Assembly: GCA_964622835.1 (NCBI GenBank)
Contig: CAZUSA010000001.1
Span: 223,468 to 287,467 of the forward strand
Direction of reading: 5' to 3'
Length of the DNA: 64,000 bases
Source of the DNA: Candidatus Woesearchaeota archaeon
GTDB lineage: Archaea; Nanobdellota; Nanobdellia; SCGC-AAA011-G17; UBA489
The notes under the pieces were generated by a model, which made no database searches, was not told where the DNA came from, and was given only the letters and a program-made list of their open reading frames with translations. Both the position numbers and the translations under genes were made by a program. Positions 19,700 through 52,581 of this stretch are shown here, in pieces. How positions within the stretch are numbered: position 1 is the first letter of the stretch; each line of letters starts with the position of its first letter.

Positions 19700-20635
19700 A
19701 TGAAAAAGATTAGTATCGGAAGTCCAAAGAAAGAACCTGTTGCTTCGGTTGTTCTTTGTGTGTATAATGAAGAAAATTATCTTGATGATAGTTTATTGAG
19801 TCTTAAAGAACAATCATTTACTGATTTTGAAGTTGTTGTTGTTGACGACGGAAGTACGGATAAAACGCTTGATGTTGCAAATAAATACGATGTACGTATT
19901 GTTCAACAAAAGCATGACGGTCTTGGTGCTGCACGAAATAATGGTGTAAAAAATGCCAAAGGTAAAATTGTATTGTTCCTTGATGCAGATATGACCTTTG
20001 ATAAAAACTATATTAAACAATTAATAAAACCTATTCAAGAAAATAAAACAAGTGGTACAACACATGGAAAAGAACATGCTAATAATTTACAAAACCCTTG
20101 GGCAAGATGTTGGGGAAGAGTAAGGATTGATCCGTCTATATCTACACGAACGCCAAAAAATTATCGTGCAATAAAACGTTCTGCATTTTTAAAATCTAAA
20201 GGGTTTGATTCATCATGGGGGTATGCTGATGATCAAAGTTTAACAGCACAGGTTGGTCCTGCATTAATTGTTAATGATGCACAGTGCTATCATCAAAATC
20301 CTTCATCATTACAAGAAACATATTTGCAAGCACGGTGGATTGGTGGTTCTACAAATAAAAAATATGTAAAACTTCTTCTAACATTGTTTAGCATAGGCAT
20401 TATTTTTGGGATAACAAGTTGGATAATGGGTCTTGCTGCAACAGCAGTACGATATGGTTTGATACTAAGTGGAATTATGTTCATTGTCTTTGTTATATTT
20501 ATGACGCAAAAAACAATACGTCGTGAAAAGGATTGGGGTCTTTTATTTATTTACCCTGGATTTCTTTGTGTTCGCGTAATTGCAACATTGCATGGTATTT
20601 TACGTCAATTAGGCAAAAAGAGCCATTTACAGTAA
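19700..20635 (+). CDS. glycosyltransferase family 2
   Basis: VVLCVYNEENYLDDSLLSL...VVVVDDGSTD...FLDADM (GT-A DxD); C-terminal TM segments; start at MKKISIG. Confidence 0.7.
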   Translation: MKKISIGSPKKEPVASVVLCVYNEENYLDDSLLSLKEQSFTDFEVVVVDDGSTDKTLDVANKYDVRIVQQKHDGLGAARNNGVKNAKGKIVLFLDADMTFDKNYIKQLIKPIQENKTSGTTHGKEHANNLQNPWARCWGRVRIDPSISTRTPKNYRAIKRSAFLKSKGFDSSWGYADDQSLTAQVGPALIVNDAQCYHQNPSSLQETYLQARWIGGSTNKKYVKLLLTLFSIGIIFGITSWIMGLAATAVRYGLILSGIMFIVFVIFMTQKTIRREKDWGLLFIYPGFLCVRVIATLHGILRQLGKKSHLQ

Positions 20636-20678
20636 ATATGAAGGGAATCCTTATAAATCTCAAAACATAGGTGCAACC

Positions 20679-22223
20679 ATGGCAAAACCAAGAGTATTAT
20701 TGATTAATCCACCTAAAATACGGCGTAGTGGGTCGGGGTACATCTCCGAAATAGTAGATATCGGTGTACCTATTGGTTTGTTAGGAATTGCTTCGTTTGT
20801 AGAAAAGAGTGATATACATGTAAAAGTTGTTGATTGTGTTGGTGATCCAAAAGCCGAAGCACTGAATGTAACTGAGAAAGATGGTTCTGAAGTATTAATG
20901 TATAGTATTACTGAAAAAGATTTTAATGAGCGCGTTAAAGACTTTAATCCTGATGTTGTAGGTATTTCTGGTCAATTTGTGAGCCAGTATAATGAGGTTA
21001 TTTGGACGACTGAAAAAATAAAAAAATTATTGCCTAATGTTAAAATTGTTGTTGGTGGTTCTTTTTTACATCGCGATTTGCTTACTAAACTTGAAAAGAT
21101 CCCTTCTATTGATATTTGTGCATTCGGTGAAGGCGAACATACAATGGTTGATATTACCAAAGCAATTACCAATAAAACACCTTTAAGTGGAGTACGTGGT
21201 ATTGCTTGGAAGGATGAAAAGGGTAAAGCACATTCGACAGAAAAGAGACCCTTCATTTATGATTTGGATACGTTACCATTACCTGCTTATCATTTAGTTG
21301 ATATGGATTTTTATTTAGATTTACCGAAGAAAGGATTTTATAATCGTGTTAAAGATACGAAACGAACCATTACGTTTATTACTTCAAGAGGATGTCCTGA
21401 ACAGTGTTGTTTTTGTTCTGTTCCACGCGTGAGTGGAAGTGTATGGAGAAGAAATTCTGTGAATTATGTGCTTAAACATATGAAAGTTCTTGTTGATACC
21501 TATGGTGTTGAGCGACTACATATTGAAGATGATAATTTCACATTAGATATGAAGCGAGCAAGAGAGATCTTTGAAGGTATGATTAAACAGGGTATTAAGG
21601 TTGAATGGGACACATTAAATGGTGTTCGTGCTGATCGTTTAGATGAGGATATGCTTACCAAGATGAAAAAATCTGGTTGTGTTAAAGTGTGTATTTCTCC
21701 TGAAGTTGGTAATCAAAAGATTCTTGACGAGGTTATTAATAAACGTCTTGACCTTAAAGATGTTGAAAAGACTGCACGGTTGTGTAAAAAGATTGGATTG
21801 CCATTACAAGCATATTTTATTATTGGTTTTCCTGGTGAAACAAAAGAAACTATTAAGGAGACAGTGTTATTTGCTAAGAAGTTAAGTAAAAAATATGATG
21901 TTATCGTAAGCGGTGCATTACGTGCCACACCATTTTATGGCACTCCATTGTATAAGACTGCAAAAGAAAAAGGATTTTTGAAAGAACCAGATCCAACAGA
22001 ATTTGATAAGAGTCTTGCTGGAAGTGCTGGCCTTATTGAAACGGATGAATTTGATGAAGCATATTTGGATAAAGTAAACAAACATTTGATTCGTGCAAGT
22101 TATTATTACTCTGCAAAGAGATATCTTAAGAATCCTAAAAAATTAGTAAGACGATTTAGAAATCCATATCTTATTGCTTCAACAATAAAACGATTTATTA
22201 AAGGTAATAGAGAGCTAATTTAA
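20679..22223 (+). CDS. B12-binding radical SAM enzyme (class B rSAM), paralog 1
   Basis: N-terminal cobalamin-binding-like Rossmann region followed by the radical SAM motif RGCPEQCCFCS (CxxxCxxC). Confidence 0.75.
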   Translation: MAKPRVLLINPPKIRRSGSGYISEIVDIGVPIGLLGIASFVEKSDIHVKVVDCVGDPKAEALNVTEKDGSEVLMYSITEKDFNERVKDFNPDVVGISGQFVSQYNEVIWTTEKIKKLLPNVKIVVGGSFLHRDLLTKLEKIPSIDICAFGEGEHTMVDITKAITNKTPLSGVRGIAWKDEKGKAHSTEKRPFIYDLDTLPLPAYHLVDMDFYLDLPKKGFYNRVKDTKRTITFITSRGCPEQCCFCSVPRVSGSVWRRNSVNYVLKHMKVLVDTYGVERLHIEDDNFTLDMKRAREIFEGMIKQGIKVEWDTLNGVRADRLDEDMLTKMKKSGCVKVCISPEVGNQKILDEVINKRLDLKDVEKTARLCKKIGLPLQAYFIIGFPGETKETIKETVLFAKKLSKKYDVIVSGALRATPFYGTPLYKTAKEKGFLKEPDPTEFDKSLAGSAGLIETDEFDEAYLDKVNKHLIRASYYYSAKRYLKNPKKLVRRFRNPYLIASTIKRFIKGNRELI

Positions 22224-24859
22224 ACATCTGCGACACGCGGATCAGGAAGTTCGTTACCATAATACCATTCACTTGGTTCAAGGTTATCTGGATAGTGTAA
22301 TTCCCATATTTTTAACGGACCAATGAGTCGCCCATTGTATACCATGAGAGGATGGTTTTGAAGGTTTGAATTAACAGTGTATATGGGTTCAAAGGCTTCA
22401 CTGTGTGTATCAAAGAGGAAGAGTTGCGTAAAGAGTGTTTTTCTAATTTTTGGACTAATGTATAGTGCTGAACCAAGTGATTCCTGTTGATCTCCATTAA
22501 TACGTGGAATAATCATGAGGCACGCATCGAATCCATCGTCACTAAACTGGTATTCTTTACCTTCAACAAATGCACAATTAAGAGGCACTTCATATTGTTG
22601 ACCGTTATACACCATGATAGCTGTGGGTTGTCCTATGACTGCCTGCCCATCCTCCTGAAGTACAACAGGCACAAAGAATCCTCCAATGGCTGCTTGTTGT
22701 TTGGGTAATAAAACACCATTGAAGACAATATCTTCATCAAGTGCTGTACCACCAGTGTAAACAAAGAGTATATCATCTCGCCGTTCTTGTGTTCGTGATA
22801 AGTCTAATTGGTATGTTGGAATCCATCCATAACGATCATAATCAACGTCACTACCAATACTACTAAATGCAGGATACTTTCCTATTTCATCTGATATCAT
22901 AAGCAAGTGTGTTGCATTTCTCGCATAGAGATATTCTAGTGCTTCTTCTTCACTTTGCCCGGTTATAACATGACGTCCCATGAAATAGTTAAGTGCATAG
23001 CCCCCTGCATTACCACCATCAGTAAGTGTTGCACGTTGTCCACCTGTTTGTACCCAGTATCCATAGTCCCACCAGTGTGCAAAGACCGCATCTTCATCAG
23101 TATTTTCTCGCACCCACTGCATAGCATATTGCCATTGAGGTCCATAACTTGGCCCTGTTGCTGCTGCTTGGTTGTTAACACGAGCATGAAGATTAGTTAA
23201 ACTTCCTTGTATAGTTGGCATAAATAAACAGAAAATAAGAAGAAAGTACCCAATAATACGAAGATGTTTCTTTTCAATTTTCCGTATAAGATCAAAGATG
23301 CAAACAATTGCGTAGGCAACAAGAATAGTTGTAACAGGCGAATAAACATGAAGTAACCGAATAGCACCACGTGCTGCGACGGTTAATACTACAAACCAGA
23401 GGAGTAAGAAGATAAGGTTATGATTAAAATATTTTACAGATTGGTAGAGTTCTTTGTCTTTTCTATAAGAGCGCCAATATAATATGCTACCACAAAGAAT
23501 GAAGAGTACAAGTGATCCCAAGTATAATGTTTTTGAAAAAGTATTTACACCGTCAAGGATAGTGCCTGCACGAAATCTACTAAAAATAAATGCAAGAATA
23601 AATAATGCATAGCCAATGGTTCCTTTGAGTTGTATCTTTGTTTTTTTAAGAAGATGATAAACAACAAAGACAGAACCAAGTAATAATAAGAACATATACA
23701 TCCAGCCCCATTGCCCAATCCAATCAGCTATGTAAGGTTGGTGACTTTCTGCGACAGTAAGATTCCAGCGAGTAAATCCAAAGGGTTCAAGAAGGTTAAG
23801 TATAACAGAAGATATTTTTCCAAAGACGGATTGAAAGCCTTCAATAACCGTTACAAGGAATATGCCTAAAACACCTGAGACAAGTGCACTAAAAATACCA
23901 AGAGGTATTTTATTGTGTATTTTCTGTTTAACCTTCCATGGATCTTTTTTTTGTATAATATGTCTAACAACACCAACAAGGAATGCAAAAAACATGAGCC
24001 CACTTGTTACACTAAGAAGGAGTATGGCTAGTGTGTATCGTTCACCAAAAAATGTTTTTAGTATAAGCATTGTTGTAACAAGCCAAACAGAATATACTGC
24101 AAAATCTTTGTCACTAAAGATGTTTAAAACAAGACCAACGAGTGCAAAACCACCGAAGATGAGGAATAATGAACTTACACCACCCCATGTTAATCCCATG
24201 AGGCCCGAAAGAACTCCTGAAATAAAGGCAAAGACGAGTGCGCGTTTCATTGTTTTTTCTTGCCATGCGCGAACGTAGAAGTACATCACTGCAAACATTA
24301 AGAACATTGCTAAACTTTCTTTGTCTGAGAATCCCGCGAGTGTCCTGTATAAATAGCTTGGTAAAACTACGAGAAATGCCGTTGCTAATAATCCTACTCT
24401 AAAGTCAAAGAGTCGTCGTACAAGCAAGTAAAAGAAAATGAGTGATAAACAAAAGAAGATGGGTGGATAAAGAACATGTGCAAGGTCTAATGTCATGGAT
24501 GAATTGAAGAAGTGAAGGAATTTATACAGGCCCGCAATAACGTGAGTGAGTACACCAAATTCTCCAATTTGTGTGTAACCAAAAGGAACATATCGTAAGG
24601 CATCTACTGCTGAGAGCGATCCTGTAGTTACTATTTCCTGTGCATATCGTAAAAAAATAAATGGGTCTAAGGCTAATGGAATGAATTTTCCAGTAGTAAT
24701 ATCCTTAAGGTGTGCTAATGGTTTTATACGAATGAGATATCCAAGAACAATAAAGAATGCAAGAGCAATCCACTGATAGGCGTTCTTCGTAAAGAGGAGG
24801 GATCTAAGTTTCTCTTTTCGTTTCGCGAGGATTTCGTCACCTTTCACGCTGGTGTGCAC
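22220..24859 (-). CDS. aglB: oligosaccharyltransferase AglB/STT3
   Basis: 879 aa with about 13 N-terminal TMs and the catalytic WWDYGYW motif. Confidence 0.85.
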   Translation of the reverse strand: MHTSVKGDEILAKRKEKLRSLLFTKNAYQWIALAFFIVLGYLIRIKPLAHLKDITTGKFIPLALDPFIFLRYAQEIVTTGSLSAVDALRYVPFGYTQIGEFGVLTHVIAGLYKFLHFFNSSMTLDLAHVLYPPIFFCLSLIFFYLLVRRLFDFRVGLLATAFLVVLPSYLYRTLAGFSDKESLAMFLMFAVMYFYVRAWQEKTMKRALVFAFISGVLSGLMGLTWGGVSSLFLIFGGFALVGLVLNIFSDKDFAVYSVWLVTTMLILKTFFGERYTLAILLLSVTSGLMFFAFLVGVVRHIIQKKDPWKVKQKIHNKIPLGIFSALVSGVLGIFLVTVIEGFQSVFGKISSVILNLLEPFGFTRWNLTVAESHQPYIADWIGQWGWMYMFLLLLGSVFVVYHLLKKTKIQLKGTIGYALFILAFIFSRFRAGTILDGVNTFSKTLYLGSLVLFILCGSILYWRSYRKDKELYQSVKYFNHNLIFLLLWFVVLTVAARGAIRLLHVYSPVTTILVAYAIVCIFDLIRKIEKKHLRIIGYFLLIFCLFMPTIQGSLTNLHARVNNQAAATGPSYGPQWQYAMQWVRENTDEDAVFAHWWDYGYWVQTGGQRATLTDGGNAGGYALNYFMGRHVITGQSEEEALEYLYARNATHLLMISDEIGKYPAFSSIGSDVDYDRYGWIPTYQLDLSRTQERRDDILFVYTGGTALDEDIVFNGVLLPKQQAAIGGFFVPVVLQEDGQAVIGQPTAIMVYNGQQYEVPLNCAFVEGKEYQFSDDGFDACLMIIPRINGDQQESLGSALYISPKIRKTLFTQLFLFDTHSEAFEPIYTVNSNLQNHPLMVYNGRLIGPLKIWELHYPDNLEPSEWYYGNELPDPRVADV

Positions 24860-26820: not shown

Positions 26821-26884
26821 TGTATGTATCTTACGGGGAGAAAACGGCCACATAAAGCTTTTTAAAGATTTCTAAGATGTAAGA

Positions 26885-28661: not shown

Positions 28662-28672
28662 TACGATGAACC

Positions 28673-29083
28673 ATGGAAAAAATTTATTCAACGCGAGAGC
28701 CAGAACGATTATTATTTGTTATTCAACGAAGTAATACGTTTACTGGTCGCGAGGATTTAACGTCTGCTCAAGAACCCTTGCAAGTAATGAGTATTTCTCC
28801 AGAGAAAGATACAGTTATTCCTGCACATAAGCATAATCCCCAAGATCGTGTGACAAAGACAACACAAGAAGCTATTGTGGTCGTTAAAGGAAAGATTGAG
28901 TCTACGTTGTATGATATTGATGATACGACAATTCTAAAGACGACTATTTTAGAGTCAGGCGATTGTTGTATAACCCTTGGAGGTGGCCATAGCCATCGTA
29001 TTCTTGAGGAAGGAACCCAATTGTATGAATGTAAAAATGGCCCATATAATGGTCCTGAAAAGGATAAAACAAATTTAAAATGA
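28673..29083 (+). CDS. cupin-fold protein (possible sugar ketoisomerase/epimerase-like)
   Basis: PAHKHNPQ...VVVKGK...GGGHSH arrangement resembles an FdtA/WxcM-type cupin; translationally coupled to fcl. Confidence 0.35.
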   Translation: MEKIYSTREPERLLFVIQRSNTFTGREDLTSAQEPLQVMSISPEKDTVIPAHKHNPQDRVTKTTQEAIVVVKGKIESTLYDIDDTTILKTTILESGDCCITLGGGHSHRILEEGTQLYECKNGPYNGPEKDKTNLK

Positions 29084-32388: not shown

Positions 32389-32402
32389 AAAACCTTATAT
32401 AA

Positions 32403-36976: not shown

Positions 36977-36989
36977 AGAGATCACCACA

Positions 36990-45914: not shown

Positions 45915-46017
45915 CAAAAAATCTAAGAAAAAGTGCCATTTAAATACTTTTTCAGAAAAGAAAGAAAAACAACCGAAATGATTATAAAACTCAAAAAAAT
46001 CGGAAAAAAAGGTAAAA

Positions 46018-46722: not shown

Positions 46723-47690
46723 GTAACTTTTGGGAAGGAAAAAACGTTTTTGTAACAGGCTGTACAGGACTTATGGGTAGTTGGATTACTAAAGAACTTG
46801 TAGAACAAAACGCAAAAGTTACTGGTTTAGTAAGGGATCAAATTCCCGAAACAAATTTTAAAACATTTCAATTAGATAAAAAAATTAACATTGTTTCTGG
46901 TGACATTGAAGATTATAATACTCTTAGAAGAGCGCTTGCAGAGTATGAAATTGACACAGTATTCCATTTAGCTGCACAGCCTATTGTAGGCATTGCTTTC
47001 AAGGACCCTATGGGGACATTCAAAGCAAATATCATGGGAACAGCCAATGTTTTAGAAGCTTGTCGCCAATCTAATGTAGAACGTGTGGCTATTGCATCAA
47101 GTGATAAAGCATATGGTGAACACAGTGAATTACCCTATACAGAAGAGTTTAGTTTAAATGGGAGGTACCCTTATGATGCTTCTAAGTCTTGTGCTGATAT
47201 TCTTAGTCAAACCTATTACAAAACATATGGATTACCAGTTGCAATTACACGGTGTGGTAATACGTATGGTGGTGGAGACTTAAACTTTAATAGAATTATT
47301 CCTGAAACGATAAAGAGTATTTTACATGAAAAAAATCCTATTATCCGTAGTGACGGAAAGTTTGTTCGTGAATACTTTTACATTAAAGATGTGGTAACAG
47401 CATACTTACAGCTTGCAGAAAATTTACACAGACCTGAGGTAAAAGGTGAAGCATTTAATTTTGGCTCAGAGGAACCAGTAACAGTTGTAGAATTAGTAAA
47501 AAAAATATTAGAAATTTCAGGAAAACAACATTTAAACATGGAAATTTTAAACAGTGCAAAAGCTGAAATTACAAAACAGTATTTGAGTGCCGAAAAAGCA
47601 AAGAGTATTTTGGGATGGAAGCCTGAATTTACATTGGATGTTGGATTAAAAGAGACGTATGATTGGTATAAGAATTACTTTAATAAGTGA
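46719..47690 (+). CDS. rfbG: CDP-glucose 4,6-dehydratase
   Basis: MSNFWEGKNVFVTGCTGLMGSW matches the RfbG N-terminus (FWQGKRVFVTGHTGFKGSW); SDR extended family. Confidence 0.75.
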   Translation: MSNFWEGKNVFVTGCTGLMGSWITKELVEQNAKVTGLVRDQIPETNFKTFQLDKKINIVSGDIEDYNTLRRALAEYEIDTVFHLAAQPIVGIAFKDPMGTFKANIMGTANVLEACRQSNVERVAIASSDKAYGEHSELPYTEEFSLNGRYPYDASKSCADILSQTYYKTYGLPVAITRCGNTYGGGDLNFNRIIPETIKSILHEKNPIIRSDGKFVREYFYIKDVVTAYLQLAENLHRPEVKGEAFNFGSEEPVTVVELVKKILEISGKQHLNMEILNSAKAEITKQYLSAEKAKSILGWKPEFTLDVGLKETYDWYKNYFNK

Positions 47691-48640
47691 AGTATTGTTT
47701 TATAGGAATAGACACTAAAAACGCCAAAGCAAGCAAAGGGATGAAAGATCCATGCTGATGAAGGTTTTCTAATAAATCCACGTATTGCTTCAAGACAGGG
47801 CACAATAAAGGTAAGGAAAAGAAGTGAAATTACAAAGAGTCGAAGAGGAGAAGCATTGTAGGGGTATTCTAGGGTTATTTCTTTGTTAAGTCTTCTATCC
47901 ACCCGACGTATCTTTTTTATAAAAAAATCTGAAACATTTTTAAGATCGTGTTTTAAACCTACAGGGACTTTACCAAAGGTGTCAAAACCTCCAACAACGA
48001 GTCTATTAACAATATCTGTGTGTATAAATGGCGTGTATGTTATTTTTTTAAGTCTGTCTTTTCTTACAAAAAAACCATTTGATCCCATTGCAGGAACGTT
48101 ACCTGGCATGAGTGTTATTTTTCTGTGTGTTTTATATATTTTTTCTATGTGCGGTAGTCCTGTCCATTTTCCTGTAATATAACACATCCTATCATAAATG
48201 CCTAAGTGAATTGCATAAGGATCATCGCCACTGAGAAGTGCACAGTAGCGTGTTATGAGATTGTCTTTTTTTGTTGCAGTAAAGAAGAGTGTGTCTGTTG
48301 CAGTGATTGTTGTATCTTTGAAAGGAACAACAATTTTTTTAAGAAATTGTTTATCAGAAATAATATTATCTGCGTCAATAAATCCAATGATGGTTCCTTT
48401 TGCTTTGTTGATACCTACAACGCGTCCATATTCTTCAACTTTCTTTTTATTTTTACAGAGAATAACGGGATATTTTTTTACTATTGAAAGAGTGTTATCT
48501 GTACTGCCACCGTCAACAATGAGTACTTCAAGTTTTTTTCGTGGATAGTCTTGTGAAAAGATACCCTCTAAACATTGTTGAATGGTTCGTTCATTGTTAT
48601 ATGTCGGCAAGACAATACTAACAGTGGGTTGTTGAGCCAT
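47675..48640 (-). CDS. glycosyltransferase family 2
   Basis: VSIVLPTYNNERTIQQCL...VLIVDGGSTDNT...FIDADN. Confidence 0.7.
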   Translation of the reverse strand: MAQQPTVSIVLPTYNNERTIQQCLEGIFSQDYPRKKLEVLIVDGGSTDNTLSIVKKYPVILCKNKKKVEEYGRVVGINKAKGTIIGFIDADNIISDKQFLKKIVVPFKDTTITATDTLFFTATKKDNLITRYCALLSGDDPYAIHLGIYDRMCYITGKWTGLPHIEKIYKTHRKITLMPGNVPAMGSNGFFVRKDRLKKITYTPFIHTDIVNRLVVGGFDTFGKVPVGLKHDLKNVSDFFIKKIRRVDRRLNKEITLEYPYNASPLRLFVISLLFLTFIVPCLEAIRGFIRKPSSAWIFHPFACFGVFSVYSYKTILHLLK

Positions 48641-48641
48641 T

Positions 48642-49658
48642 TTATTCTATCTCCAAGGCTTCTGCTGGGTTAAATGTCTTGTCCAGACTTTTATTACGTA
48701 GGATACCTGCAAACACACCATACGCATAGGTCATATGTGTTGCAATTAAGAGGAATAATACAGGGATAAAGTAAGCAAATGATTTTGTTTTTGCAGCCGT
48801 AAAAATAGAATAAAGAGCATAAAGTGCAAGGACTACAAAATAAAACGTTTTGAAAGAGTTATGAAGCATAAACGTTAAAGGCCCAAGAAGGACACCAACG
48901 TAAAATATAAGAGGTAAAAAGTAAACAAGCTTGCGAGATGTTTCTGGAAATTTTCTTGAAAAATACCCTCTGTATAAGGACCACATGTAGGTTTGTCGTA
49001 GGTGATCTTGGTATGTTTTTCTTCGATGGTGATAAACAATAACGTTAGGATCATAGACCATTTTTTTCTTGAGTTTTTGTGTAAGATCATAACAAAGTTT
49101 GGTATCTTCTCCACCCCAATAATAAGTGTTAAATCCTTTGATACTTTCAAAGTCTTTTTTTCGAACAAGAAGATTACATGTAGGATAATCTACGATATAT
49201 TGGAATTTATCTTTTGTATACACATATTTTTGCGAGCCTGCTCCAAGTGCATAAACAAATCCTGAAACCATTTGTTTAAACGTACTTTCTTTTGGTGCTA
49301 ATTGTGGCCCAGCAACTGCACAAATATCTGGATTTTCGAAGTAGGGTATTGCATGATCCAACCAGTCTGCAACAGGATAAGCATCATCATCAATAAATGC
49401 TACAATATCACCGCGTGCTGCTTGTGCACCAACGTTTCTTTTTGTTGCAGGGTTAACACGGTCAACTTTGAGAATGGTAGTATTAGGAAAAGTATATGTT
49501 TCTTTTGCTTCTGATACAATAATAATTTCAAAGTTTTTATAGGACAAATCAAGAAGTTTTGGAATGTGATCTAAGACGTATTGTCCTATTTTTCGTACGG
49601 GAATAACAATTGAAAAAAAAGGTTCATTCGATGTTTTAGTTTGTGTGTTTTTTGTCAT
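48642..49658 (-). CDS. glycosyltransferase family 2 (with C-terminal TMs)
   Basis: FSIVIPVRK...EIIIVSE...IVAFIDDDAYP. Confidence 0.7.
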   Translation of the reverse strand: MTKNTQTKTSNEPFFSIVIPVRKIGQYVLDHIPKLLDLSYKNFEIIIVSEAKETYTFPNTTILKVDRVNPATKRNVGAQAARGDIVAFIDDDAYPVADWLDHAIPYFENPDICAVAGPQLAPKESTFKQMVSGFVYALGAGSQKYVYTKDKFQYIVDYPTCNLLVRKKDFESIKGFNTYYWGGEDTKLCYDLTQKLKKKMVYDPNVIVYHHRRKTYQDHLRQTYMWSLYRGYFSRKFPETSRKLVYFLPLIFYVGVLLGPLTFMLHNSFKTFYFVVLALYALYSIFTAAKTKSFAYFIPVLFLLIATHMTYAYGVFAGILRNKSLDKTFNPAEALEIE

Positions 49659-50358
49659 AATATCGAAGGATATGGAGCCTGTAGGCTATAGCCAGGGTAT
49701 CAACGAACATATAGTAGATCTCTTTTAAGTTTATCCCTGTGCCACTGAATTTATAGGTAAGAGATATTGGTGCTTCATATATCTTGTATCCTTGTTTATG
49801 CGCATTAAGTAAAAGCTCTAAATCAAAGGCATATTTTTTGATGGCAACGCGTGGTAGTACATTATCTAATACTTCTTTCTTAAAGAGTTTTAATCCTGAT
49901 TGTGTATCTTGTAATCGTAAGCCGAGTAAAAAAAAGACGAGAATGTGGTATCCAAAGCTAAAGAATTTACGAAACCACGGGTAATGCACATTTGATTGAT
50001 GATGACGTTTGTTACCAATAACAACATCTGCATTGGTTAGATGTTTTGCAAAGTGTTTTATTTGGTCTGGATGAAGGTCTAAATCTGCATCAATAAAGGT
50101 TACTGCATCTCCTGTAACAAAAGTGTATCCATATTTTAGTGCATGTCCTTTTCCTTTGTTTTTTTTATATCCTACGACGCGTAAATATTTTGAGCGTATT
50201 TTTTTTGCTTCTGCAAGACAGTTGTTTGTTGATCCATCATCAACGAGTATAATTTCGTAGTGCTTAAAATTACTACTTATACTTTTTATCATTTCTTGCA
50301 TGTTTGCATAAATATTTGTTTCGTTGTACATGGGTACAACAACAGAAAGTTTATTCAT
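49636..50358 (-). CDS. glycosyltransferase family 2 (DPM1-like polyprenyl-phosphate sugar synthase)
   Basis: LSVVVPMYNET...ILVDDGSTNN...GKGHAL...FIDADLDLHPDQI. Confidence 0.7.
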   Translation of the reverse strand: MNKLSVVVPMYNETNIYANMQEMIKSISSNFKHYEIILVDDGSTNNCLAEAKKIRSKYLRVVGYKKNKGKGHALKYGYTFVTGDAVTFIDADLDLHPDQIKHFAKHLTNADVVIGNKRHHQSNVHYPWFRKFFSFGYHILVFFLLGLRLQDTQSGLKLFKKEVLDNVLPRVAIKKYAFDLELLLNAHKQGYKIYEAPISLTYKFSGTGINLKEIYYMFVDTLAIAYRLHILRYYDKKHTN

Positions 50359-51589
50359 TTTTTACCCTCCAAACAATGAAGAATAATGCAATAAAGAGTA
50401 TTGCACCGACACCTTGCAAGAGGGTTACAACTTGTGCAAGAGTATCATGGTAGAGATAGATGAGGATAAGTTCAAGTGCTAAAAAGAAAGCAAATAAGTA
50501 AAGGAAGGTATATTTTTTAAGTGAAAGTAAGTAGAGAGAAAATAATTTTGAAAATGAAATGGTTGCCATGAATATACCGTAGGGAACGATAAGTGGTGTA
50601 ACAGAAAGATATGCAGAACCAAAGAGTAATTGTACAACAAAGGTACCAAAGAAGTGATATCCTAAGATAATAGGCACGGTAATGATTCCAATGATGCCAG
50701 CTGATTTCCACATCAATGATTTATGTGCTCCTCCTTGTTCGGAGAGTTCAACAACTTTAGGGAACATTACTTGGACGATGGAAAATGATGCAAAGAATAC
50801 TATTTTTCCTATGAGACTTATGACTGCATAATGTCCTGCATCTATTGCGGGAAAAAAGTGTTTAATCAAGAAAAGATCTAGGGAATAAAATGCTGTAAAG
50901 AAAAGAACGGTCACAAACATGGGTAATGTATATTTGTATATTTCTCGAAGAGGGAATGATTCTTTTGTTCCTTGAATGTATGTTTTTATTTTTCGAATGC
51001 CGTATATTGTTGCTAAGGCATAAGAAAGGATGATTGCAACAAGTGCTCCCCCAACACTGTATCCTAATATCACAAGCAATATTCCTGCAATGAGTTTTGT
51101 TGTTCCTTCTACGGCAAGGTTCATACCGTATGTGCGAAAGTGTTGTAGTCCTTGAAGAAAGCCACGAACAATAGAGAGTTCAGGAACGACGAGTATGGCC
51201 AGTATTGAAATAAACAAGAGATAGTAGGGTATGCGCAAATAGGATGAAAGAAAGATATTGACAATTAATAAAAGAACAAATGCTATGATTGTCCCATATA
51301 TCATTTTTTTGGTGTAGTCTGAATAAAGATAACGAAGGCGTTCAGTTTGTTTTTTCAGATGTAATAATGTTACAAATTTGGATATACTAAATTGGAATGT
51401 TGTTGCAAGTATACCCATTAACGCCGTAAGGGCTATGAGTGTTGCTAAGACACCATAACTTTCCGGTCCAAGTGTCCTTCCCATGTAAAAGTGAAAGAGA
51501 AATCCTGTAAGATTAATGACACCTGTTCCAATAAGTAAATATAAATTGTCTTTAAAAAAATGTTTGTTATCTGCCATTATATCACCCAT
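50351..51589 (-). CDS. oligosaccharide flippase (MOP/Wzx-like)
   Basis: 412 aa with about 12 TMs and a Wzx-like architecture. Confidence 0.6.
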   Translation of the reverse strand: MGDIMADNKHFFKDNLYLLIGTGVINLTGFLFHFYMGRTLGPESYGVLATLIALTALMGILATTFQFSISKFVTLLHLKKQTERLRYLYSDYTKKMIYGTIIAFVLLLIVNIFLSSYLRIPYYLLFISILAILVVPELSIVRGFLQGLQHFRTYGMNLAVEGTTKLIAGILLVILGYSVGGALVAIILSYALATIYGIRKIKTYIQGTKESFPLREIYKYTLPMFVTVLFFTAFYSLDLFLIKHFFPAIDAGHYAVISLIGKIVFFASFSIVQVMFPKVVELSEQGGAHKSLMWKSAGIIGIITVPIILGYHFFGTFVVQLLFGSAYLSVTPLIVPYGIFMATISFSKLFSLYLLSLKKYTFLYLFAFFLALELILIYLYHDTLAQVVTLLQGVGAILFIALFFIVWRVKNE

Positions 51590-52581
51590 ATAAGTGCAGC
51601 AAAGAAAGCTTGTATGACAAAGATGAAGTAGGTAATTTGTTTTTCAGTGTAGTTTCCGTTTTTCATAAACAAGTGTGTTACTGAATAGGGCGTGTCATAT
51701 TTTGATTGTATATTTCCATGCACCCATATGCCATAACTTGCTGCAGTAAAACGACTACGGAGTTTCAAAAAGAATTCTACAAAGAAAGGTATTGAAATAA
51801 TAAGTGCTGCTTTTTCAAGGTTACCGAGGATAGCTACGCTTGCAAGTGTCCCACCTAAGAAGTATGTTAATGAATCGCCTGGAAGAATTTTTGCTGGTGT
51901 TTTGTTGTAAAACCAAAAGGCACAGAGTGATGTAAAGGCAAGGAGTGCTAAGAGTGCTGCTATGTATTGGTTATGAACAAAGGCGTAGAAACCTAATGAT
52001 CCTAAATAAATAATTCCCATGCCCACTTCCAAACCATTTAATCCTGCAAGCATATTAACCATGTTTGCTGCACCGACAAATCCTATGGGTACAAAGAGTA
52101 ATGGATAAATAACACCTAAGGCTACATCACCAAAGAAGGGCAAATAAATTGTTGATGTTCCTGCGTGGGTGACCATTAGGGGTATTGCTGCAATAAGTGT
52201 GAGAAAGGGTTTTTGCCATTGGCGTAAACCTCCTGATGCTTCTTTGGATTTGGTAATGAGCACATCATCAAGGAATCCGATGATTGTTACTAAGAAAATA
52301 GATATAAACCCTGCAAAGAGAACGAGAAATTGTCCGCTTTCAAGAGTAAGTTCTGCTGCACCTATATCAAAGAATGTGCGAAAAAAGATGAAGAGCATGA
52401 ATCCTACGAAGAATCCTGCAAAGACGGCAAGACCTCCAGATATAGGAACGAGTGGCCGGTGTTCTTTGTTTTGGTCTTTGACAACAAGGTCTATGCGACG
52501 AAGGTATCTGATTAACCAAGGCGTCGTGAGATAGGTAATAAATGCACCGATAGCTGCCACGACAAATGCGAGGATGTTCAT
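51577..52581 (-). CDS. UDP-GlcNAc:polyprenyl-phosphate GlcNAc-1-P transferase (MraY/WecA/AglH family)
   Basis: 334 aa, 10-11 TMs, matches the MraY/WecA/AglH family. Confidence 0.65.
   Translation of the reverse strand: MNILAFVVAAIGAFITYLTTPWLIRYLRRIDLVVKDQNKEHRPLVPISGGLAVFAGFFVGFMLFIFFRTFFDIGAAELTLESGQFLVLFAGFISIFLVTIIGFLDDVLITKSKEASGGLRQWQKPFLTLIAAIPLMVTHAGTSTIYLPFFGDVALGVIYPLLFVPIGFVGAANMVNMLAGLNGLEVGMGIIYLGSLGFYAFVHNQYIAALLALLAFTSLCAFWFYNKTPAKILPGDSLTYFLGGTLASVAILGNLEKAALIISIPFFVEFFLKLRSRFTAASYGIWVHGNIQSKYDTPYSVTHLFMKNGNYTEKQITYFIFVIQAFFAALIWVI

What the first reader, a model, noticed from the sequence alone, without database searches (positions are those of the whole stretch)
19700..52581. 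About 33-kb glycosylation super-cluster with dual NDP-deoxyhexose pathways and C-methylation machinery
Around AglB (WWDYG) and the AglH-like initiating transferase lie about 10 glycosyltransferases, two flippases, a GDP-fucose pathway (Gmd, Fcl), a CDP-6-deoxyhexose pathway (RfbF, RfbG), a TylC3-like sugar C-methyltransferase, two FdtA-like ketoisomerase cupins, two SAM methyltransferases and three class-B radical SAM enzymes. The CDP-glucose pathway plus C-methyltransferase/ketoisomerase enzymes are hallmarks of bacterial antibiotic and O-antigen branched or dideoxy sugars, not of described archaeal N-glycans. This predicts a previously undescribed, heavily tailored (C-methylated, deoxy) glycan on this archaeon's S-layer or surface glycoproteins
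Basis: partly seen in the sequence, partly recalled or inferred. Interest (0 to 1): 0.8.

Follow-up and report, generated by a model that had tools for sequence, protein, structure and literature searches.

The report
DPANN archaeal N-glycosylation gene island
This 33-kb stretch is the protein-glycosylation gene island of an uncultured, small-genome (Woesearchaeota-like, DPANN) archaeon. It probably makes a methyl-branched deoxy sugar from GDP-mannose, a sugar type not yet reported on archaeal proteins, but every gene belongs to a known family and the same sugar cassette is common in related genomes.

Summary
Window 19604-52581 carries 30 tightly packed genes, 28 of them glycan-related. They include AglB (WWDYG), an AglH-like initiator, 5 GT2, 2 GT4, 2 PMT_2 GT-C enzymes, two MOP-type flippases (one weak) and Gmd. 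They also include RfbF/RfbG-like genes, a full-length TylC3/TcaB9-type C-methyltransferase, two cupins, two SAM methyltransferases and three B12-binding radical SAM proteins.

The interpretation needs correcting in five places.
- The host is a Woesearchaeota-like DPANN archaeon. Composition and nearest homologues are native, so this is not a bacterial insertion.
- The C-methyltransferase belongs with Gmd, not with the CDP-glucose genes 14 kb away. In 30 of 33 related metagenomic loci it sits in a cassette of WbuC-type cupin, C-methyltransferase, CapF-like cupin and Gmd.
- "Fcl" is not a GDP-fucose synthase. It scores 235 bits against a cut-off of 500 and lacks Cys109, His179 and the YxxxK pair.
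- The cupins are WbuC-type and CapF-like, not clearly FdtA ketoisomerases.
- The island is a mosaic inserted between AglB and AglH, which are adjacent in many relatives.

The best reading is a modular N-glycan pathway that includes a GDP-6-deoxy-C-methylhexose, analogous to the virenose model for Coxiella. The radical SAM functions remain unknown. Interest is moderate.

The parts
19604..20635 (+). GT2 glycosyltransferase (GT2_a); left edge of the island
   Evidence: PF00535 120.9 bits. A 37% identical homologue lies in the closest relative, L003.
20679..22223 (+). Class-B (B12-binding) radical SAM protein 1, 514 aa
   Evidence: PF02310 54.5 and PF04055 74.2 bits. CPEQCCFC at residue 239. No NCBIfam equivalog is reached; the best is the Sden_1168 P-methyltransferase family at 182 against 575.
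22220..24859 (-). AglB oligosaccharyltransferase (STT3 family), 879 aa
   Evidence: PF02516 71.6 bits, WWDYG at 596, about 13 TM segments. 62-63% identical to Woesearchaeota/Nanoarchaeota MAG proteins.
24909..26273 (-). Probable MOP-type flippase (MOP1), 454 aa, about 13 TM segments
   Evidence: Polysacc_synt 21.3 and MatE 21.5 bits, both below cut-off. A 58% identical orthologue lies next to AglB in L003.
27264..28661 (+). Class-B radical SAM protein 2, 465 aa; first gene of the C-methyl-sugar operon
   Evidence: PF02310 71.2 and PF04055 74.1 bits. CPNSCNFC at residue 198. It ends 11 nt before the next gene. 59-60% identical orthologues lie 1.6-4.8 kb from the C-methyltransferase in L084 and L103.
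28673..29083 (+). WbuC-family metallo-cupin, 136 aa
29080..30024 (+). Fcl-like atypical extended SDR, 314 aa (not a true GDP-fucose synthase)
   Evidence: NF047922 234.6 against cut-off 500. Against E. coli GMER 1e6u: S107->T, C109->I, Y136->F, K140->S, H179->Q. The loss of Cys and of YxxxK is shared by the cassette-linked subfamily.
30011..31174 (+). GT4 glycosyltransferase embedded in the cassette (GT4_a)
   Evidence: PF00534 49.3 bits. 41-49% identical homologues lie directly upstream of the C-methyltransferase in L100, L102, L104 and L106-L108, and within about 0.5 kb in L084, L097 and L103. L027 has a 26% identical GT4 in the same position.
31171..32388 (+). TylC3/TcaB9/MtmC-type NDP-4-keto-sugar C-methyltransferase, 405 aa
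   Evidence: PF08421, PF13489 and PF08484. Full-length PDB matches to MtmC 4rv9 at 5e-62, KijD1 5t64 and TcaB9 3ndi. The CxxC...CxxC motif and Y-x-E-H are conserved.
32403..32852 (+). CapF-C-terminal-like cupin, 149 aa
   Evidence: PF14667 32.8>28.7; FdtA 22.5<23. A profile search of PDB gives Cap5F at 4e-5 and FdtA/QdtA at 1e-3 to 1e-1. It is fused to the C-methyltransferase in P0108. It lies within 3 kb downstream in 26/33 loci.
32857..33990 (-). Divergent NUDIX-fold protein with an uncharacterised C-terminal half, 377 aa
   Evidence: PF00293 42 bits. Weak similarity to GDP-mannose mannosyl hydrolase. No domain is found in residues 150-377. A NUDIX gene sits beside Gmd in L084 too.
33993..35093 (-). 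GDP-mannose 4,6-dehydratase (Gmd)
   Evidence: TIGR01472 433.1>415. Within 3 kb of the C-methyltransferase in 30/33 metagenomic loci. Among 80 AglB loci, true Gmd occurs only in the two that also have the C-methyltransferase.
35180..36976 (+). GT-C glycosyltransferase, PMT_2/ArnT-like (PMT2_a)
   Evidence: PF13231 73.1 bits. Weak Agl23 and ArnT hits.
36939..37676 (+). GT2, AglJ/Dol-P-hexose-synthase-like (GT2_b)
   Evidence: PF00535 127.7. TIGR04182 AglJ 120 bits, below cut-off. PpgS, ArnC and Dol-P-hexose transferase hits. Homologues in 46/80 AglB loci.
37673..38638 (+). Flippase-like domain membrane protein (MprF TM-region family)
   Evidence: PF03706 144.5. TIGR00374 94>43.2.
38628..39992 (+). 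FAD/NAD(P)-binding amine-oxidase/GLF-like flavoprotein, 454 aa
   Evidence: PF01593 58.3 and PF03275 32>26.3. PRK07208-type 252 bits, below cut-off. True UDP-Galp mutase only 44.5 against 304.
39993..40733 (-). Class I SAM methyltransferase (MT_a)
   Evidence: Methyltransf_12, _31 and _11. No equivalog.
40774..41871 (+). GT4 glycosyltransferase (GT4_b)
   Evidence: PF00534 82.8 and PF13439 75.1. Weak Agl16 similarity.
41855..43498 (-). Class-B radical SAM protein 3, 547 aa
   Evidence: PF02310 64.6 and PF04055 77.6. CPQKCSFC at residue 230. A 52% identical orthologue lies beside PMT2_b in L007.
43557..45197 (+). GT-C glycosyltransferase, PMT_2 (PMT2_b)
   Evidence: PF13231 50 bits. 51% identical orthologue in L007.
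45180..46127 (-). Class I SAM methyltransferase (MT_b)
   Evidence: Methyltransf_11 59.7.
46018..46722 (+). Glucose-1-phosphate cytidylyltransferase-like (RfbF-like)
   Evidence: TIGR02623 is the best hit by far at 231.8 bits, but below the cut-off of 300.25. 51% identical orthologue in L007.
46719..47690 (+). CDP-glucose 4,6-dehydratase-like (RfbG-like)
   Evidence: TIGR02622 243.5 against 278.45. PDB 1wvg at 4e-48, with the S-D-K and YxxxK motifs conserved.
47675..50358 (-). Three consecutive GT2 glycosyltransferases (GT2_c 47675-48640, GT2_d 48642-49658, GT2_e 49636-50358)
   Evidence: PF00535 80.2, 50.4 and 101.5 bits. 48-52% identical orthologues in L007.
50351..51589 (-). MOP/Wzx-type flippase (MOP2)
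   Evidence: PF01943 58.2>28.2 and PF13440 56.8.
51577..52581 (-). AglH-like polyprenyl-phosphate HexNAc-1-P transferase; right edge of the island
   Evidence: PF00953 112 bits. 52-58% identical orthologues lie directly beside AglB in many relatives.

Best explanation
The region is the native N-glycosylation (agl) island of a Woesearchaeota-like DPANN archaeon. It is assembled from separable modules that have accumulated between AglB and AglH, two genes that are adjacent in many relatives.

Inferred workflow:
1. AglH-like enzyme primes dolichyl phosphate with a HexNAc-1-phosphate.
2. Cytoplasmic GT2 and GT4 enzymes extend the lipid-linked glycan from nucleotide sugars made in situ.
3. SAM methyltransferases, and possibly the three cobalamin-type radical SAM enzymes, tailor the glycan.
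4. MOP flippases move it outward.
5. A Dol-P-sugar branch adds sugars outside the membrane. This branch consists of an AglJ-like GT2, a flippase-like membrane protein and PMT_2 GT-C enzymes, and resembles the Haloferax AglD/AglR/AglS logic.
6. AglB transfers the glycan to Asn of surface proteins. Candidate targets encoded nearby are an S-layer-family protein and two sequon-rich secreted paralogues.

The distinctive part is the block 27264-35093. Gmd makes GDP-4-keto-6-deoxy-mannose. The TylC3/TcaB9-type enzyme C-methylates it next to the keto group, most likely at C3. The two small cupins probably epimerise or isomerise it. The atypical Fcl-like SDR probably disposes of the 4-keto group. The embedded GT4 transfers the resulting GDP-6-deoxy-C-methylhexose.

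A second, independent module (41855-52581) carries a CDP-glucose 4,6-dehydratase route.

What is shown: gene families, catalytic motifs, synteny and co-occurrence. What is inferred: substrates, the order of steps, the sugar's stereochemistry, the radical SAM roles, and N-linkage of the product.
For: Taxonomy and native origin:
- The AglB, SecD and SecF best matches are Woesearchaeota/Nanoarchaeota MAGs at 62-69% identity.
- Cluster GC3 is 0.250 against 0.255 in the flanks.
- Plasmid blastn finds only short gmd stretches.
- Of the nine named C-methyltransferase homologues at 51-57% identity, eight are DPANN archaea and one is a Planctomycetes.
- An identical locus occurs in two independent metagenome assemblies.

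Mosaic structure:
- AglB and AglH are less than 100 bp apart in 18 of 36 relatives that have both, but 26.7 kb apart here.
- The right module is syntenic with L007 at about 50% identity.

The GDP route for the C-methyltransferase:
- The genes from 27264 to 32852 are separated by at most 14 nt or overlap by 4-14 nt, and Gmd lies adjacent and divergent.
- Of 33 metagenomic C-methyltransferase loci with at least 3 kb of flank on each side, 30 have Gmd, 30 the WbuC cupin, 26 the CapF-like cupin and 10 the Fcl-like gene. None has RfbF/G.
- Among 80 AglB loci, the C-methyltransferase and true Gmd occur in exactly the same two.
- C-methyltransferase::cupin fusion proteins exist.
- In other cassettes a DegT aminotransferase (L055, L083, L086) or an RmlD-like reductase (L027) takes the place of the Fcl-like gene. 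This points to a step at C4.
- The Coxiella virenose model proposes the same gmd, fcl and TylCIII-like logic (PMC3539893).
Against: - No biochemistry exists for any TylC3-type enzyme on a GDP-sugar. PMC3539893 notes that activity has been shown only on TDP-sugars.
- The Fcl-like protein lacks the canonical SDR Tyr/Lys as well as the epimerase Cys/His, so its proposed reductase role is chemically unexplained.
- No ManB/ManC gene is in the window to supply GDP-mannose.
- One related locus (L121) has RfbF/RfbG-like genes, not Gmd, beside the cassette.
- The CDP route has no downstream reductase in the island.
- Nothing shows expression, or that all modules feed one N-glycan rather than several glycoconjugates.
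- The radical SAM proteins reach no characterised family and have no constant gene neighbour.
Confidence: 0.6

Rival explanations
1. The CDP-glucose route (RfbF/RfbG) supplies the 4-keto-6-deoxy intermediate that the C-methyltransferase and ketoisomerase-type cupins convert into a branched or dideoxy sugar of the bacterial antibiotic/O-antigen type. Gmd and Fcl separately make GDP-fucose.
For: - RfbG-like keeps the S-D-K/YxxxK signature of CDP-glucose 4,6-dehydratase. Its product would otherwise have no downstream enzyme in the island.
- One related locus (L121) has RfbF/RfbG-like genes beside the C-methyltransferase cassette.
- The second cupin scores just under the FdtA cut-off (22.5 against 23).
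Against: - RfbF/G lie 14 kb from the C-methyltransferase, in a module that is syntenic with L007, which has no C-methyltransferase.
- None of 33 well-flanked C-methyltransferase loci has RfbF/G within 3 kb, against 30 of 33 with Gmd.
- 'Fcl' fails the family cut-off and lacks C109, H179, Y136 and K140, so a GDP-fucose branch is unlikely.
- There is no RfbH/E1-type 3-dehydrase for a dideoxy sugar.
Confidence: 0.12
2. The island does not make one elaborate N-glycan. It encodes several independent glycoconjugate pathways, such as an N-glycan plus a second N-glycan, O-mannosylation, glycolipid or surface polysaccharide, that are merely co-located in a variable region.
For: - The island has two flippases, two PMT_2 GT-C enzymes, two nucleotide-sugar routes and frequent strand switches.
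- Its modules occur separately in relatives (L007, L027, L055, L083, L084).
- The C-methyltransferase cassette also occurs at 44-51% identity in many marine contigs where no AglB is detected within the stretch held, often only a few kb.
Against: - All modules lie between AglB and AglH, which are adjacent anchors in relatives.
- No polymerase or chain-length (Wzy/Wzz) genes were detected.
- This reading is compatible with, rather than exclusive of, the best explanation.
Confidence: 0.2
3. The block is a recent horizontal acquisition from bacteria and may not function in this archaeon.
For: - The enzyme families (TylC3-type C-methyltransferase, WbuC, RfbF/G) were first described in bacteria.
- One close C-methyltransferase homologue is labelled Planctomycetes.
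- Cluster GC is slightly lower than the flanks (0.350 against 0.375).
Against: - GC3 is the same inside and outside the island.
- No integrase, transposase or tRNA lies at the borders.
- Eight of the nine named close homologues are DPANN archaea.
- Modules are syntenic with other Woesearchaeota at about 50-60% amino-acid identity.
- There are no plasmid matches beyond short gmd stretches.
- All ORFs are intact.
Confidence: 0.04
4. The C-methyltransferase methylates C5 (NovU-like, giving a 5,5-gem-dimethyl, noviose-type sugar) or another position rather than C3. The three class-B radical SAM enzymes are not sugar methylases at all, and instead carry out lipid-carrier modification or non-methylating rearrangements such as those of HpnJ, BchE or AprD4.
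For: - A 4-keto group acidifies both C3-H and C5-H. To my knowledge NovU is a C5-methylating relative in the same enzyme family (from memory, not tested here).
- The best NCBIfam hits for the radical SAM proteins include non-methylases such as HpnJ, BchE and AprD4. All score below 40% of their cut-offs.
Against: - The best solved relatives (MtmC, KijD1, TcaB9) are all C3-methyltransferases, and their Y-x-E-H motif is conserved.
- There is no direct evidence either way for the radical SAM proteins.
Confidence: 0.15

Closest known systems
Archaeal agl N-glycosylation clusters around aglB (e.g. Haloferax volcanii aglB-aglJ/G/I/E/D/R/S; established knowledge)
   Same: An AglB (STT3, WWDYG) is clustered with glycosyltransferases, a flippase, methyltransferase(s) and sugar-nucleotide enzymes. 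The island also has a Dol-P-hexose synthase-like GT2 (weak AglJ hit) plus GT-C/flippase-like proteins, which suggests a final sugar added outside the membrane, as in the AglD/AglR/AglS scheme.
   Different: - The host is a DPANN archaeon.
- The initiator is AglH-like (PF00953).
- The island carries a C-methyltransferase cassette, a CDP-glucose route and three B12-radical SAM genes, none of which is part of any characterised agl pathway I know of. None appears in the papers found.
- No equivalog-level match to any Agl protein was obtained.
Coxiella burnetii virenose (6-deoxy-3-C-methyl-gulose) locus: gmd (CBU0689), fcl (CBU0688), TylCIII-like CBU0691; an in silico model (PMC3539893)
   Same: A Gmd, an Fcl-type SDR and a TylC3-type C-methyltransferase are clustered. 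The proposed route runs from GDP-mannose to GDP-4-keto-6-deoxymannose, then C3 methylation, then 4-keto processing.
   Different: - The Coxiella Fcl is described as keeping the S107/Y136/K140 and C109/H179 residues, while the window protein lacks four of these five.
- The window cassette adds two dedicated cupins, a NUDIX protein, a GT4 and a radical SAM gene.
- The Coxiella glycan is an LPS O-antigen, not an N-glycan.
- Neither pathway has been proven biochemically.
dTDP-sugar C3-methyltransferases TylC3, EryBIII, MtmC (4rv9), KijD1 (5t64) and TcaB9 (3ndi), and the late mycarose steps (C-methyltransferase, then 5-epimerase, then 4-ketoreductase)
   Same: The window protein aligns over its full length at E = 5e-62 to 7e-52. 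It has the same three-domain architecture, four Zn-site cysteines and the Y-x-E-H motif. The logic of a C-methyltransferase followed by a cupin epimerase and an SDR is the same.
   Different: - Identity is about 35-40%.
- The genomic partner is Gmd (a GDP-sugar with 2-OH retained), not RmlA/RmlB plus 2,3-dehydratase.
- The cupins are WbuC/CapF-like, not RmlC/TylK-like.
- The setting is surface glycan rather than antibiotic biosynthesis.
S. aureus CapF/Cap5F C-terminal cupin (2zkl, 3st7) and FdtA/QdtA 3,4-ketoisomerases (2pa7, 4zu7, 7n67)
   Same: A profile of the downstream cupin hits the Cap5F cupin domain (4e-5) and then FdtA/QdtA-type proteins (1e-3 to 0.1). All are small cupins that act on NDP-4-keto-6-deoxy sugars, and the R-G-x-H-x-H motif is shared.
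   Different: - The similarity is remote.
- The protein stands alone, or is fused to the C-methyltransferase, instead of being fused to an SDR.
- The activity (C3-epimerase, ketoisomerase or 5-epimerase) cannot be told from sequence.
Campylobacter jejuni GDP-heptose tailoring: separate cupin C3/C5 epimerases plus Fcl-like C4 reductases (PDB 8dcl, 7m13, 7cxt, 7anc)
   Same: This is a precedent for splitting GMER chemistry into a cupin epimerase plus an Fcl-homologous enzyme on GDP-4-keto sugars. These chains appear among the hits of the window's Fcl-like protein and cupin model.
   Different: - The window SDR lacks YxxxK.
- No C-methylation occurs in the Campylobacter pathways.
Cobalamin-dependent (class B) radical SAM methylases acting on sugars, e.g. 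GenK and GenD1 in gentamicin biosynthesis (PMC4340712; review PMC9204698; both listed but not read)
   Same: A B12-binding domain plus a radical SAM core with CxxxCxxC, encoded among glycosyltransferases and sugar-tailoring genes.
   Different: - No family-level match was found. The best NCBIfam scores are 180-211 bits against cut-offs of 481-578.
- The substrate and even the reaction type are unknown.
- The host is a DPANN archaeon that presumably has to import cobalamin (an inference).

Membership tests
AglB / STT3 oligosaccharyltransferase | STT3 N-terminal multi-TM domain above the Pfam cut-off | tested here: met
   PF02516 71.6 bits against 24.5; about 13 hydrophobic segments.
AglB / STT3 oligosaccharyltransferase | WWDYG catalytic motif in the C-terminal soluble domain | tested here: met
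   WWDYG at residues 596-600. PF21436 core domain 21.8 bits, just under the cut-off of 23.
AglH / GPT-type polyprenyl-phosphate HexNAc-1-P transferase (PF00953) | Glycos_transf_4 domain above the cut-off, polytopic membrane protein | tested here: met
   PF00953 112 bits against 27; at least 7 TM segments. Substrate specificity was not tested.
TylC3/TcaB9-type NDP-hexose C-methyltransferase | Three-domain architecture: N-terminal Zn domain (Methyltransf_13), class I SAM domain, C-terminal Methyltransf_14 domain | tested here: met
   PF08421 54.6, PF13489 67.8 and PF08484 130.6 bits, all above their cut-offs.
TylC3/TcaB9-type NDP-hexose C-methyltransferase | Four Zn-binding cysteines and the Y-x-E-H active-site motif (the catalytic His of TcaB9; residue role recalled from memory) | tested here: met
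   The alignment to 4rv9 and 5t64 shows C-x2-C...C-x2-C, and 'YHEH' opposite 'YHEH' in 4rv9 and 'YDEH' in 5t64.
TylC3/TcaB9-type NDP-hexose C-methyltransferase | Acts on an NDP-4-keto-6-deoxyhexose, methylating C3 | not testable with these tools
   There is only context evidence: Gmd lies within 3 kb in 30/33 loci. The nucleotide (GDP or dTDP) and the regiochemistry need an assay.
GDP-mannose 4,6-dehydratase (Gmd) | Equivalog HMM TIGR01472 above the trusted cut-off | tested here: met
   433.1 bits against 415.
GDP-L-fucose synthase (GMER/Fcl) | Equivalog HMM NF047922 above the cut-off | tested here: not met
   234.6 bits against 500.
GDP-L-fucose synthase (GMER/Fcl) | Catalytic S107/Y136/K140 and epimerisation residues C109/H179 (residue list from PMC3539893) | tested here: not met
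   The alignment to 1e6u gives T, F, S, I and Q at these five positions. The cassette-linked subfamily likewise lacks the Cys and YxxxK.
Glucose-1-phosphate cytidylyltransferase (RfbF) | Equivalog HMM TIGR02623 above the cut-off | tested here: not met
   231.8 bits against 300.25. This is the best hit by more than 120 bits over any other nucleotidyltransferase model, so the protein is RfbF-like but not certified.
CDP-glucose 4,6-dehydratase (RfbG) | Equivalog HMM TIGR02622 above the cut-off | tested here: not met
   243.5 bits against 278.45.
CDP-glucose 4,6-dehydratase (RfbG) | Active-site S-D-K (Asp-Lys instead of the Asp-Glu of dTDP-glucose dehydratases; recalled from memory) and YxxxK | tested here: met
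   'SSDKAYG' lies opposite 'TSDKCYD', and 'PYDASK' opposite 'PYSNSK', of 1wvg.
FdtA/QdtA 3,4-ketoisomerase cupins | PF05523 (FdtA) above the cut-off | tested here: not met
   The downstream cupin scores 22.5 against 23, and PF14667 scores higher at 32.8. In PDB its profile prefers Cap5F (4e-5) over FdtA-type proteins (1e-3 or weaker). The upstream cupin has no FdtA hit at all.
WbuC family cupin metalloprotein (TIGR04366) | Subfamily HMM above the cut-off; cupin fold with His/His/Glu/His metal site | tested here: met
   50 bits against 42. H52, E66 and H106 are invariant and H54 nearly so. The AlphaFold model has pLDDT 93.2 and a beta-barrel. Its function is unknown even for the family.
Class B (cobalamin-dependent) radical SAM enzymes | N-terminal B12-binding domain plus a radical SAM domain with CxxxCxxC | tested here: met
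   All three proteins have PF02310 at 54-71 bits and PF04055 at 74-78 bits. The motif is at residues 239, 198 and 230.
Class B (cobalamin-dependent) radical SAM enzymes | Methyltransferase activity on a defined substrate | not testable with these tools
   No NCBIfam equivalog is reached. The best hits mix P-methylases with the non-methylases HpnJ and BchE.
MOP/Wzx flippases | Polysacc_synt/MatE domain above the cut-off, 12-14 TM segments | tested here: inconclusive
   MOP2 passes (58.2 against 28.2). MOP1 scores only 21.3 and 21.5 bits, below the cut-offs, but has about 13 TM segments and a conserved position next to AglB in L003.

The most novel reading that the evidence does not exclude
DPANN archaea, and some other uncultured microbes, share an uncharacterised cassette. 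It consists of a WbuC-type cupin, a TylC3-type C-methyltransferase, a CapF-like cupin and Gmd, with either an atypical Tyr/Lys-less Fcl-like SDR or a DegT aminotransferase. The cassette would make a GDP-linked C-methyl-branched 6-deoxy (or 4-amino) hexose. That would be the first C-branched sugar in an archaeal N-glycan and the first TylC3-type enzyme working on a GDP-sugar. In Woesearchaeota this cassette is embedded in AglB islands where cobalamin-dependent radical SAM enzymes are recurrent accessory genes, with 52 ORFs in 31 of 80 loci. This implies B12-dependent glycan tailoring in genome-reduced symbionts that must scavenge the cofactor.
Probability: 0.35. Interest if true: 0.6.

Novelty: new variant of a known kind. 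Interest (0 to 1): 0.42.

Why it matters
Nothing is known experimentally about surface glycans of Woesearchaeota or most other DPANN archaea. Their cell surface is the interface with their hosts. A genome of roughly 1 Mb that devotes 33 kb to glycan tailoring suggests the surface glycan is under strong selection, for example from host recognition or virus evasion.

The analysis yields three things.
- A concrete, testable biochemical prediction: GDP-mannose converted to a GDP-6-deoxy-C-methylhexose by four or five small soluble enzymes that could be expressed in E. coli.
- A set of uncharacterised enzyme subfamilies: the WbuC cupin, the CapF-like stand-alone cupin, and an Fcl-like SDR without YxxxK.
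- A recurrent but unexplained link between class-B radical SAM enzymes and archaeal N-glycosylation islands.

The finding does not overturn any concept. Archaeal N-glycans are already known to be extremely diverse, and agl clusters are known to be mosaic.

Tried and rejected
- PDB searches with the WbuC-type cupin, by sequence and by profile, gave only spurious hits to designed beta-propeller repeat proteins.
- The C-terminal 228 residues of the NUDIX protein have no Pfam hit even at E = 0.01. Full-length PDB hits are weak generic NUDIX proteins.
- An exact-sequence cluster look-up returned no organism or protein names. Taxonomy therefore rests on the best AglB and SecDF relatives.
- The neighbour analysis of 52 radical SAM ORFs found no constant partner gene. 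I dropped the idea that they pair specifically with PMT_2 or Dol-P-sugar GT2 genes.
- I considered that the GLF-like flavoprotein is a UDP-galactopyranose mutase. It scores only 44.5 bits against a cut-off of 304.
- I considered phosphonate decoration, because the top radical SAM hits are P-methyltransferase families. No PEP-mutase-type gene is present.
- A plasmid search for a mobile origin was negative.
- Literature searches on DPANN or Woesearchaeota glycosylation, on archaeal C-methyl sugars and on 'NDP-hexose 3-C-methyltransferase' with archaea found nothing relevant.
- The sigma-70 promoter scan was not used, because archaeal promoters are not covered by it.

Full report
OBSERVATION

ORF calling and Pfam/NCBIfam scans show 30 contiguous genes between 19604 and 52581. 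Only two have no obvious link to glycans: a cyclophilin at 26326-26853 and a small DUF4234 protein at 26885-27214.

The inventory is as follows.
- AglB, 22220-24859 (-): STT3 71.6 bits, WWDYG at residue 596, about 13 TM segments.
- An AglH-like PF00953 enzyme at 51577-52581 (-).
- Five GT2, two GT4 and two PMT_2 GT-C glycosyltransferases.
- One clear MOP flippase at 50351-51589, and one sub-threshold but polytopic MOP-like protein at 24909-26273.
- Gmd at 33993-35093, with TIGR01472 at 433>415.
- An Fcl-like SDR at 29080-30024.
- RfbF-like and RfbG-like genes at 46018-47690.
- A three-domain sugar C-methyltransferase at 31171-32388.
- Two small cupins at 28673-29083 and 32403-32852.
- Two class I SAM methyltransferases.
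- Three B12-binding radical SAM proteins at 20679, 27264 and 41855, each with CxxxCxxC.

WHOSE GENOME, AND IS THE BLOCK NATIVE?

A scan of species-representative genomes with AglB returned 578 relatives. The best 80 are almost all labelled Woesearchaeota, Nanoarchaeota or Nanoarchaeia, and the top identities are 62-63%. The left-flank SecD and SecF are 63-69% identical to the same MAGs. NCBI taxonomy places Woesearchaeota in Nanobdellati, that is DPANN. The identical locus occurs in two independent assemblies, and the protein is recorded on a 293-kb contig.

Several lines argue against foreign origin.
- GC3 is the same inside the island (0.250 +/- 0.033) and in the flanking genes (0.255 +/- 0.047).
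- No integrase, transposase or tRNA marks the borders.
- blastn of the C-methyl cassette against 72,556 plasmids finds only short conserved gmd stretches.
- The closest C-methyltransferase homologues are 53-63% identical. Nine carry an organism name (51-57% identity): Pacearchaeota (five), Nanoarchaeota (two), Diapherotrites (one) and Planctomycetes (one).

ARCHITECTURE: A MOSAIC BETWEEN TWO ANCHORS

I called ORFs in the 80 AglB loci and compared them with the window's proteins. In 36 loci both AglB and AglH are present. In 18 of these they are less than 100 bp apart, typically in the order SpoIIM-AglB-AglH. In the window AglH still sits next to SpoIIM, RimK, the Zn-protease and AI-2E. AglB, however, lies 26.7 kb away beside SecDF, as in the two closest relatives (L003, L004).

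The right-hand module, 41855-52581, comprises AglH, MOP2, three GT2, RfbF/RfbG, a methyltransferase, PMT_2 and a radical SAM gene. It is syntenic with L007 at about 50% amino-acid identity. Other modules occur separately elsewhere. Strand switches are frequent. The island is thus a variable region assembled from cassettes.

THE C-METHYL SUGAR CASSETTE

The genes from 27264 to 32852 are separated by at most 14 nt or overlap by 4-14 nt. Their order is radical SAM 2, WbuC-type cupin, Fcl-like SDR, GT4, C-methyltransferase, CapF-like cupin. A NUDIX protein and Gmd are encoded divergently right after them.

The C-methyltransferase aligns over its full length with three solved C3-methyltransferases: MtmC (4rv9, 5e-62), KijD1 (5t64) and TcaB9 (3ndi). 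The four Zn-site cysteines and the Y-x-E-H motif are conserved. It is a genuine member of the TylC3 type.

Its partner, however, is Gmd and not the CDP-glucose genes 14 kb away.
- Among the 80 AglB loci, the C-methyltransferase occurs in exactly two (L027, L055). These are the only two with a true Gmd, at 49-50% identity.
- A metagenome scan gave 80 more C-methyltransferase loci. Of the 33 with at least 3 kb on both sides, Gmd is within 3 kb in 30, the WbuC-type cupin in 30, the CapF-like cupin in 26 and the Fcl-like SDR in 10. RfbF/G-like genes at 35% identity or more are within 3 kb in none.
- Four further contexts, all holding C-methyltransferase homologues at 55-60% identity and two of them named Pacearchaeota and Diapherotrites, show the same arrangement.
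- P0108 is a natural fusion of the C-methyltransferase with the PF14667 cupin.
- One short locus, L121, is an exception, with RfbF/RfbG-like neighbours.

In some cassettes the Fcl-like gene is replaced by a DegT aminotransferase (L055, L083, L086) or by an RmlD-like reductase (L027). This pattern fits a step acting on the C4 keto group.

'FCL' IS NOT A GDP-FUCOSE SYNTHASE

The Fcl-like protein scores 234.6 bits against the NF047922 cut-off of 500. PMC3539893 lists the GMER catalytic residues as S107, Y136, K140, C109 and H179. Aligned to E. coli GMER (1e6u), the window protein has T, F, S, I and Q at these positions.

An alignment of 15 homologues shows the following.
- The whole cassette-linked subfamily (44-49% identity) lacks the Cys.
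- It has Y, F, I or L at the Tyr column.
- It has S, T or N followed by K or R instead of the Lys.
- More distant hits (32-37% identity) keep S-x-C, YxxxK and His.

The glycine-rich NAD(P) motif is intact. I therefore treat it as an atypical SDR that probably handles the 4-keto group. The chemistry is unexplained, and this is the weakest link of the model.

THE CUPINS

The downstream cupin passes PF14667, and FdtA falls just below its cut-off. A profile of 17 homologues hits the Cap5F cupin domain (4e-5) ahead of FdtA/QdtA proteins.

Both are plausibly epimerases or isomerases of NDP-4-keto sugars. 'FdtA-like ketoisomerase' is not established.

THE CDP ROUTE

RfbF-like and RfbG-like are the best matches by a wide margin to glucose-1-phosphate cytidylyltransferase and CDP-glucose 4,6-dehydratase. 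Both fall below the equivalog cut-offs. RfbG-like keeps the S-D-K and YxxxK motifs of 1wvg.

No 3-dehydrase (RfbH/E1) or dedicated 4-reductase accompanies them, either here or in L007. The final CDP-sugar is therefore unknown. 'Dideoxy' is unsupported.

THE DOL-P-SUGAR BRANCH

The block 35180-39992 encodes four proteins.
- A PMT_2 GT-C enzyme.
- A GT2 whose best hits are AglJ, Dol-P-hexose transferase, PpgS and ArnC-type polyprenyl-phosphate glycosyltransferases.
- A flippase-like domain protein (TIGR00374, 94>43).
- An amine-oxidase/GLF-like flavoprotein, which is not a canonical UDP-Galp mutase.

By analogy with ArnC/ArnT and with the haloarchaeal AglD/AglR/AglS steps (established knowledge), this suggests that a sugar is added from a lipid-phosphate donor on the outer face. 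This is an inference.

THE RADICAL SAM PROTEINS

The three proteins are 29-34% identical to each other. None approaches any characterised NCBIfam family. Their best hits are the Sden_1168 P-methylase family, HpnJ, BchE and ApyD, at 180-211 bits against cut-offs of 481-750.

Homologues are strikingly common in Woesearchaeota AglB islands, with 52 ORFs in 31 of 80 loci. They have no constant neighbour. 59-60% identical orthologues of radical SAM 2 lie within 5 kb of the cassette in L084 and L103, and less similar class-B radical SAM genes lie within about 7 kb of it in L083, L085, L097, L098 and L112. In the broader metagenomic set a radical SAM gene lies within 10 kb of the C-methyltransferase in only 2 of 33 loci.

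Cobalamin-dependent C-methylation of glycan sugars, as with GenK and GenD1, is the obvious guess. It is only a guess.

LIKELY TARGETS

Three candidates lie outside the island.
- 60295-62931 encodes an 878-aa protein with a signal-peptide-like start. It passes both S-layer models (PF05124 55.9>23.9; TIGR01564 37.8>25).
- Two secreted paralogues at 5903-7324 and 56310-57584 share an N-terminal motif. They carry 15 and 13 N-X-S/T sequons, against about 6 expected.

COMPARISON AND NOVELTY

The island is a member of the known class of archaeal agl clusters. The closest analogue of its distinctive cassette is the proposed, unproven GDP route to virenose in Coxiella, with gmd, fcl and a TylCIII-like gene (PMC3539893). 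The enzymology parallels the late mycarose steps.

These features appear not to have been described.
- The cassette with two dedicated cupins and a YxxxK-less Fcl-like SDR.
- Its wide occurrence in DPANN archaea.
- Its placement inside AglB islands rich in class-B radical SAM genes.

The paper library yielded nothing on these points. That library is incomplete, so this is absence of evidence only. All components belong to known families, and the extreme diversity of archaeal N-glycans is well established.

Noticed in passing
window 60295-62931 (-): An 878-aa protein with a signal-peptide-like N-terminus passes both S-layer models (PF05124 55.9>23.9; TIGR01564 37.8>25). It has 10 N-X-S/T sequons and is a likely substrate of the neighbouring AglB pathway.
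   Followed up: partly
window 5903-7324 (-) and 56310-57584 (+): Two paralogous secreted proteins (473 and 424 aa) have no Pfam hit. Both have a signal peptide followed by the same 'AQVSLTFVAPT' motif. They carry 15 and 13 sequons against about 6 expected, and they bracket the island.
   Followed up: partly
window 29080-30024 (+) and homologues in L084, L096, L098, L101, L102, L104, L106-L108, L112: A whole subfamily of Fcl/GMER-like SDRs, linked to the C-methyltransferase cassette, lacks the catalytic Cys and the canonical YxxxK. The Tyr column holds Y, F, I or L, and the Lys is shifted by one. Its chemistry is unexplained.
   Followed up: partly
L086 8662-10326 (protein P0108); probably also P0036 (534 aa) and P0061 (553 aa): Natural fusion of the C-methyltransferase with the PF14667 (CapF-like) cupin. 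This is a Rosetta-stone link between the two activities.
   Followed up: partly
L055 15915-18644; L083 9001-12380; L086 8662-11428: Variants of the cassette carry a DegT/DnrJ/EryC1 aminotransferase instead of the Fcl-like SDR. This predicts a 4-amino-4,6-dideoxy-C-methylhexose in other DPANN genomes.
   Followed up: no
L003-L082 (80 Woesearchaeota AglB loci): There are 52 B12-binding radical SAM-like ORFs within 10 kb of AglB, spread over 31 of the 80 loci, with no constant neighbouring gene. This is a recurrent, unexplained association of class-B radical SAM genes with DPANN N-glycosylation islands.
   Followed up: partly
L084 11435-13888 and 5752-6168: A Pacearchaeota-type island with the same cassette has an 817-aa double-SDR 'Gmd' fusion and a Y1 (IS200-like) transposase inside the island.
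   Followed up: no
window 57639-58358 (-): An Anp1-like (PF03452, 37.8>28.8) glycosyltransferase-like gene lies outside the island, next to tRNA-Ser.
   Followed up: no
window 3279-3395 (+); tRNAs at 7429-7512, 12010-12086, 12573-12647, 58366-58450: A stand-alone 5S rRNA gene (76 bits) has no 16S or 23S rRNA nearby. There are four tRNA genes, none at the island borders.
   Followed up: no
window 13850-16489 (-) and 12651-13928 (-): Large secreted proteins (879 and 425 aa) have no confident Pfam domain. The smaller has sub-threshold TSP3-repeat and MopE-motif hits. They are possibly further surface proteins.
   Followed up: no
window 10182-11984 (+): A PIN domain, a T2SSE-type ATPase and a (sub-threshold) KH domain are fused in one 600-aa protein.
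   Followed up: no
window 32857-33990 (-): The NUDIX protein beside Gmd appears on inspection to have a degenerate Nudix box. Its 228-residue C-terminal half has no detectable domain. The L084 counterpart is only 187 aa.
   Followed up: partly
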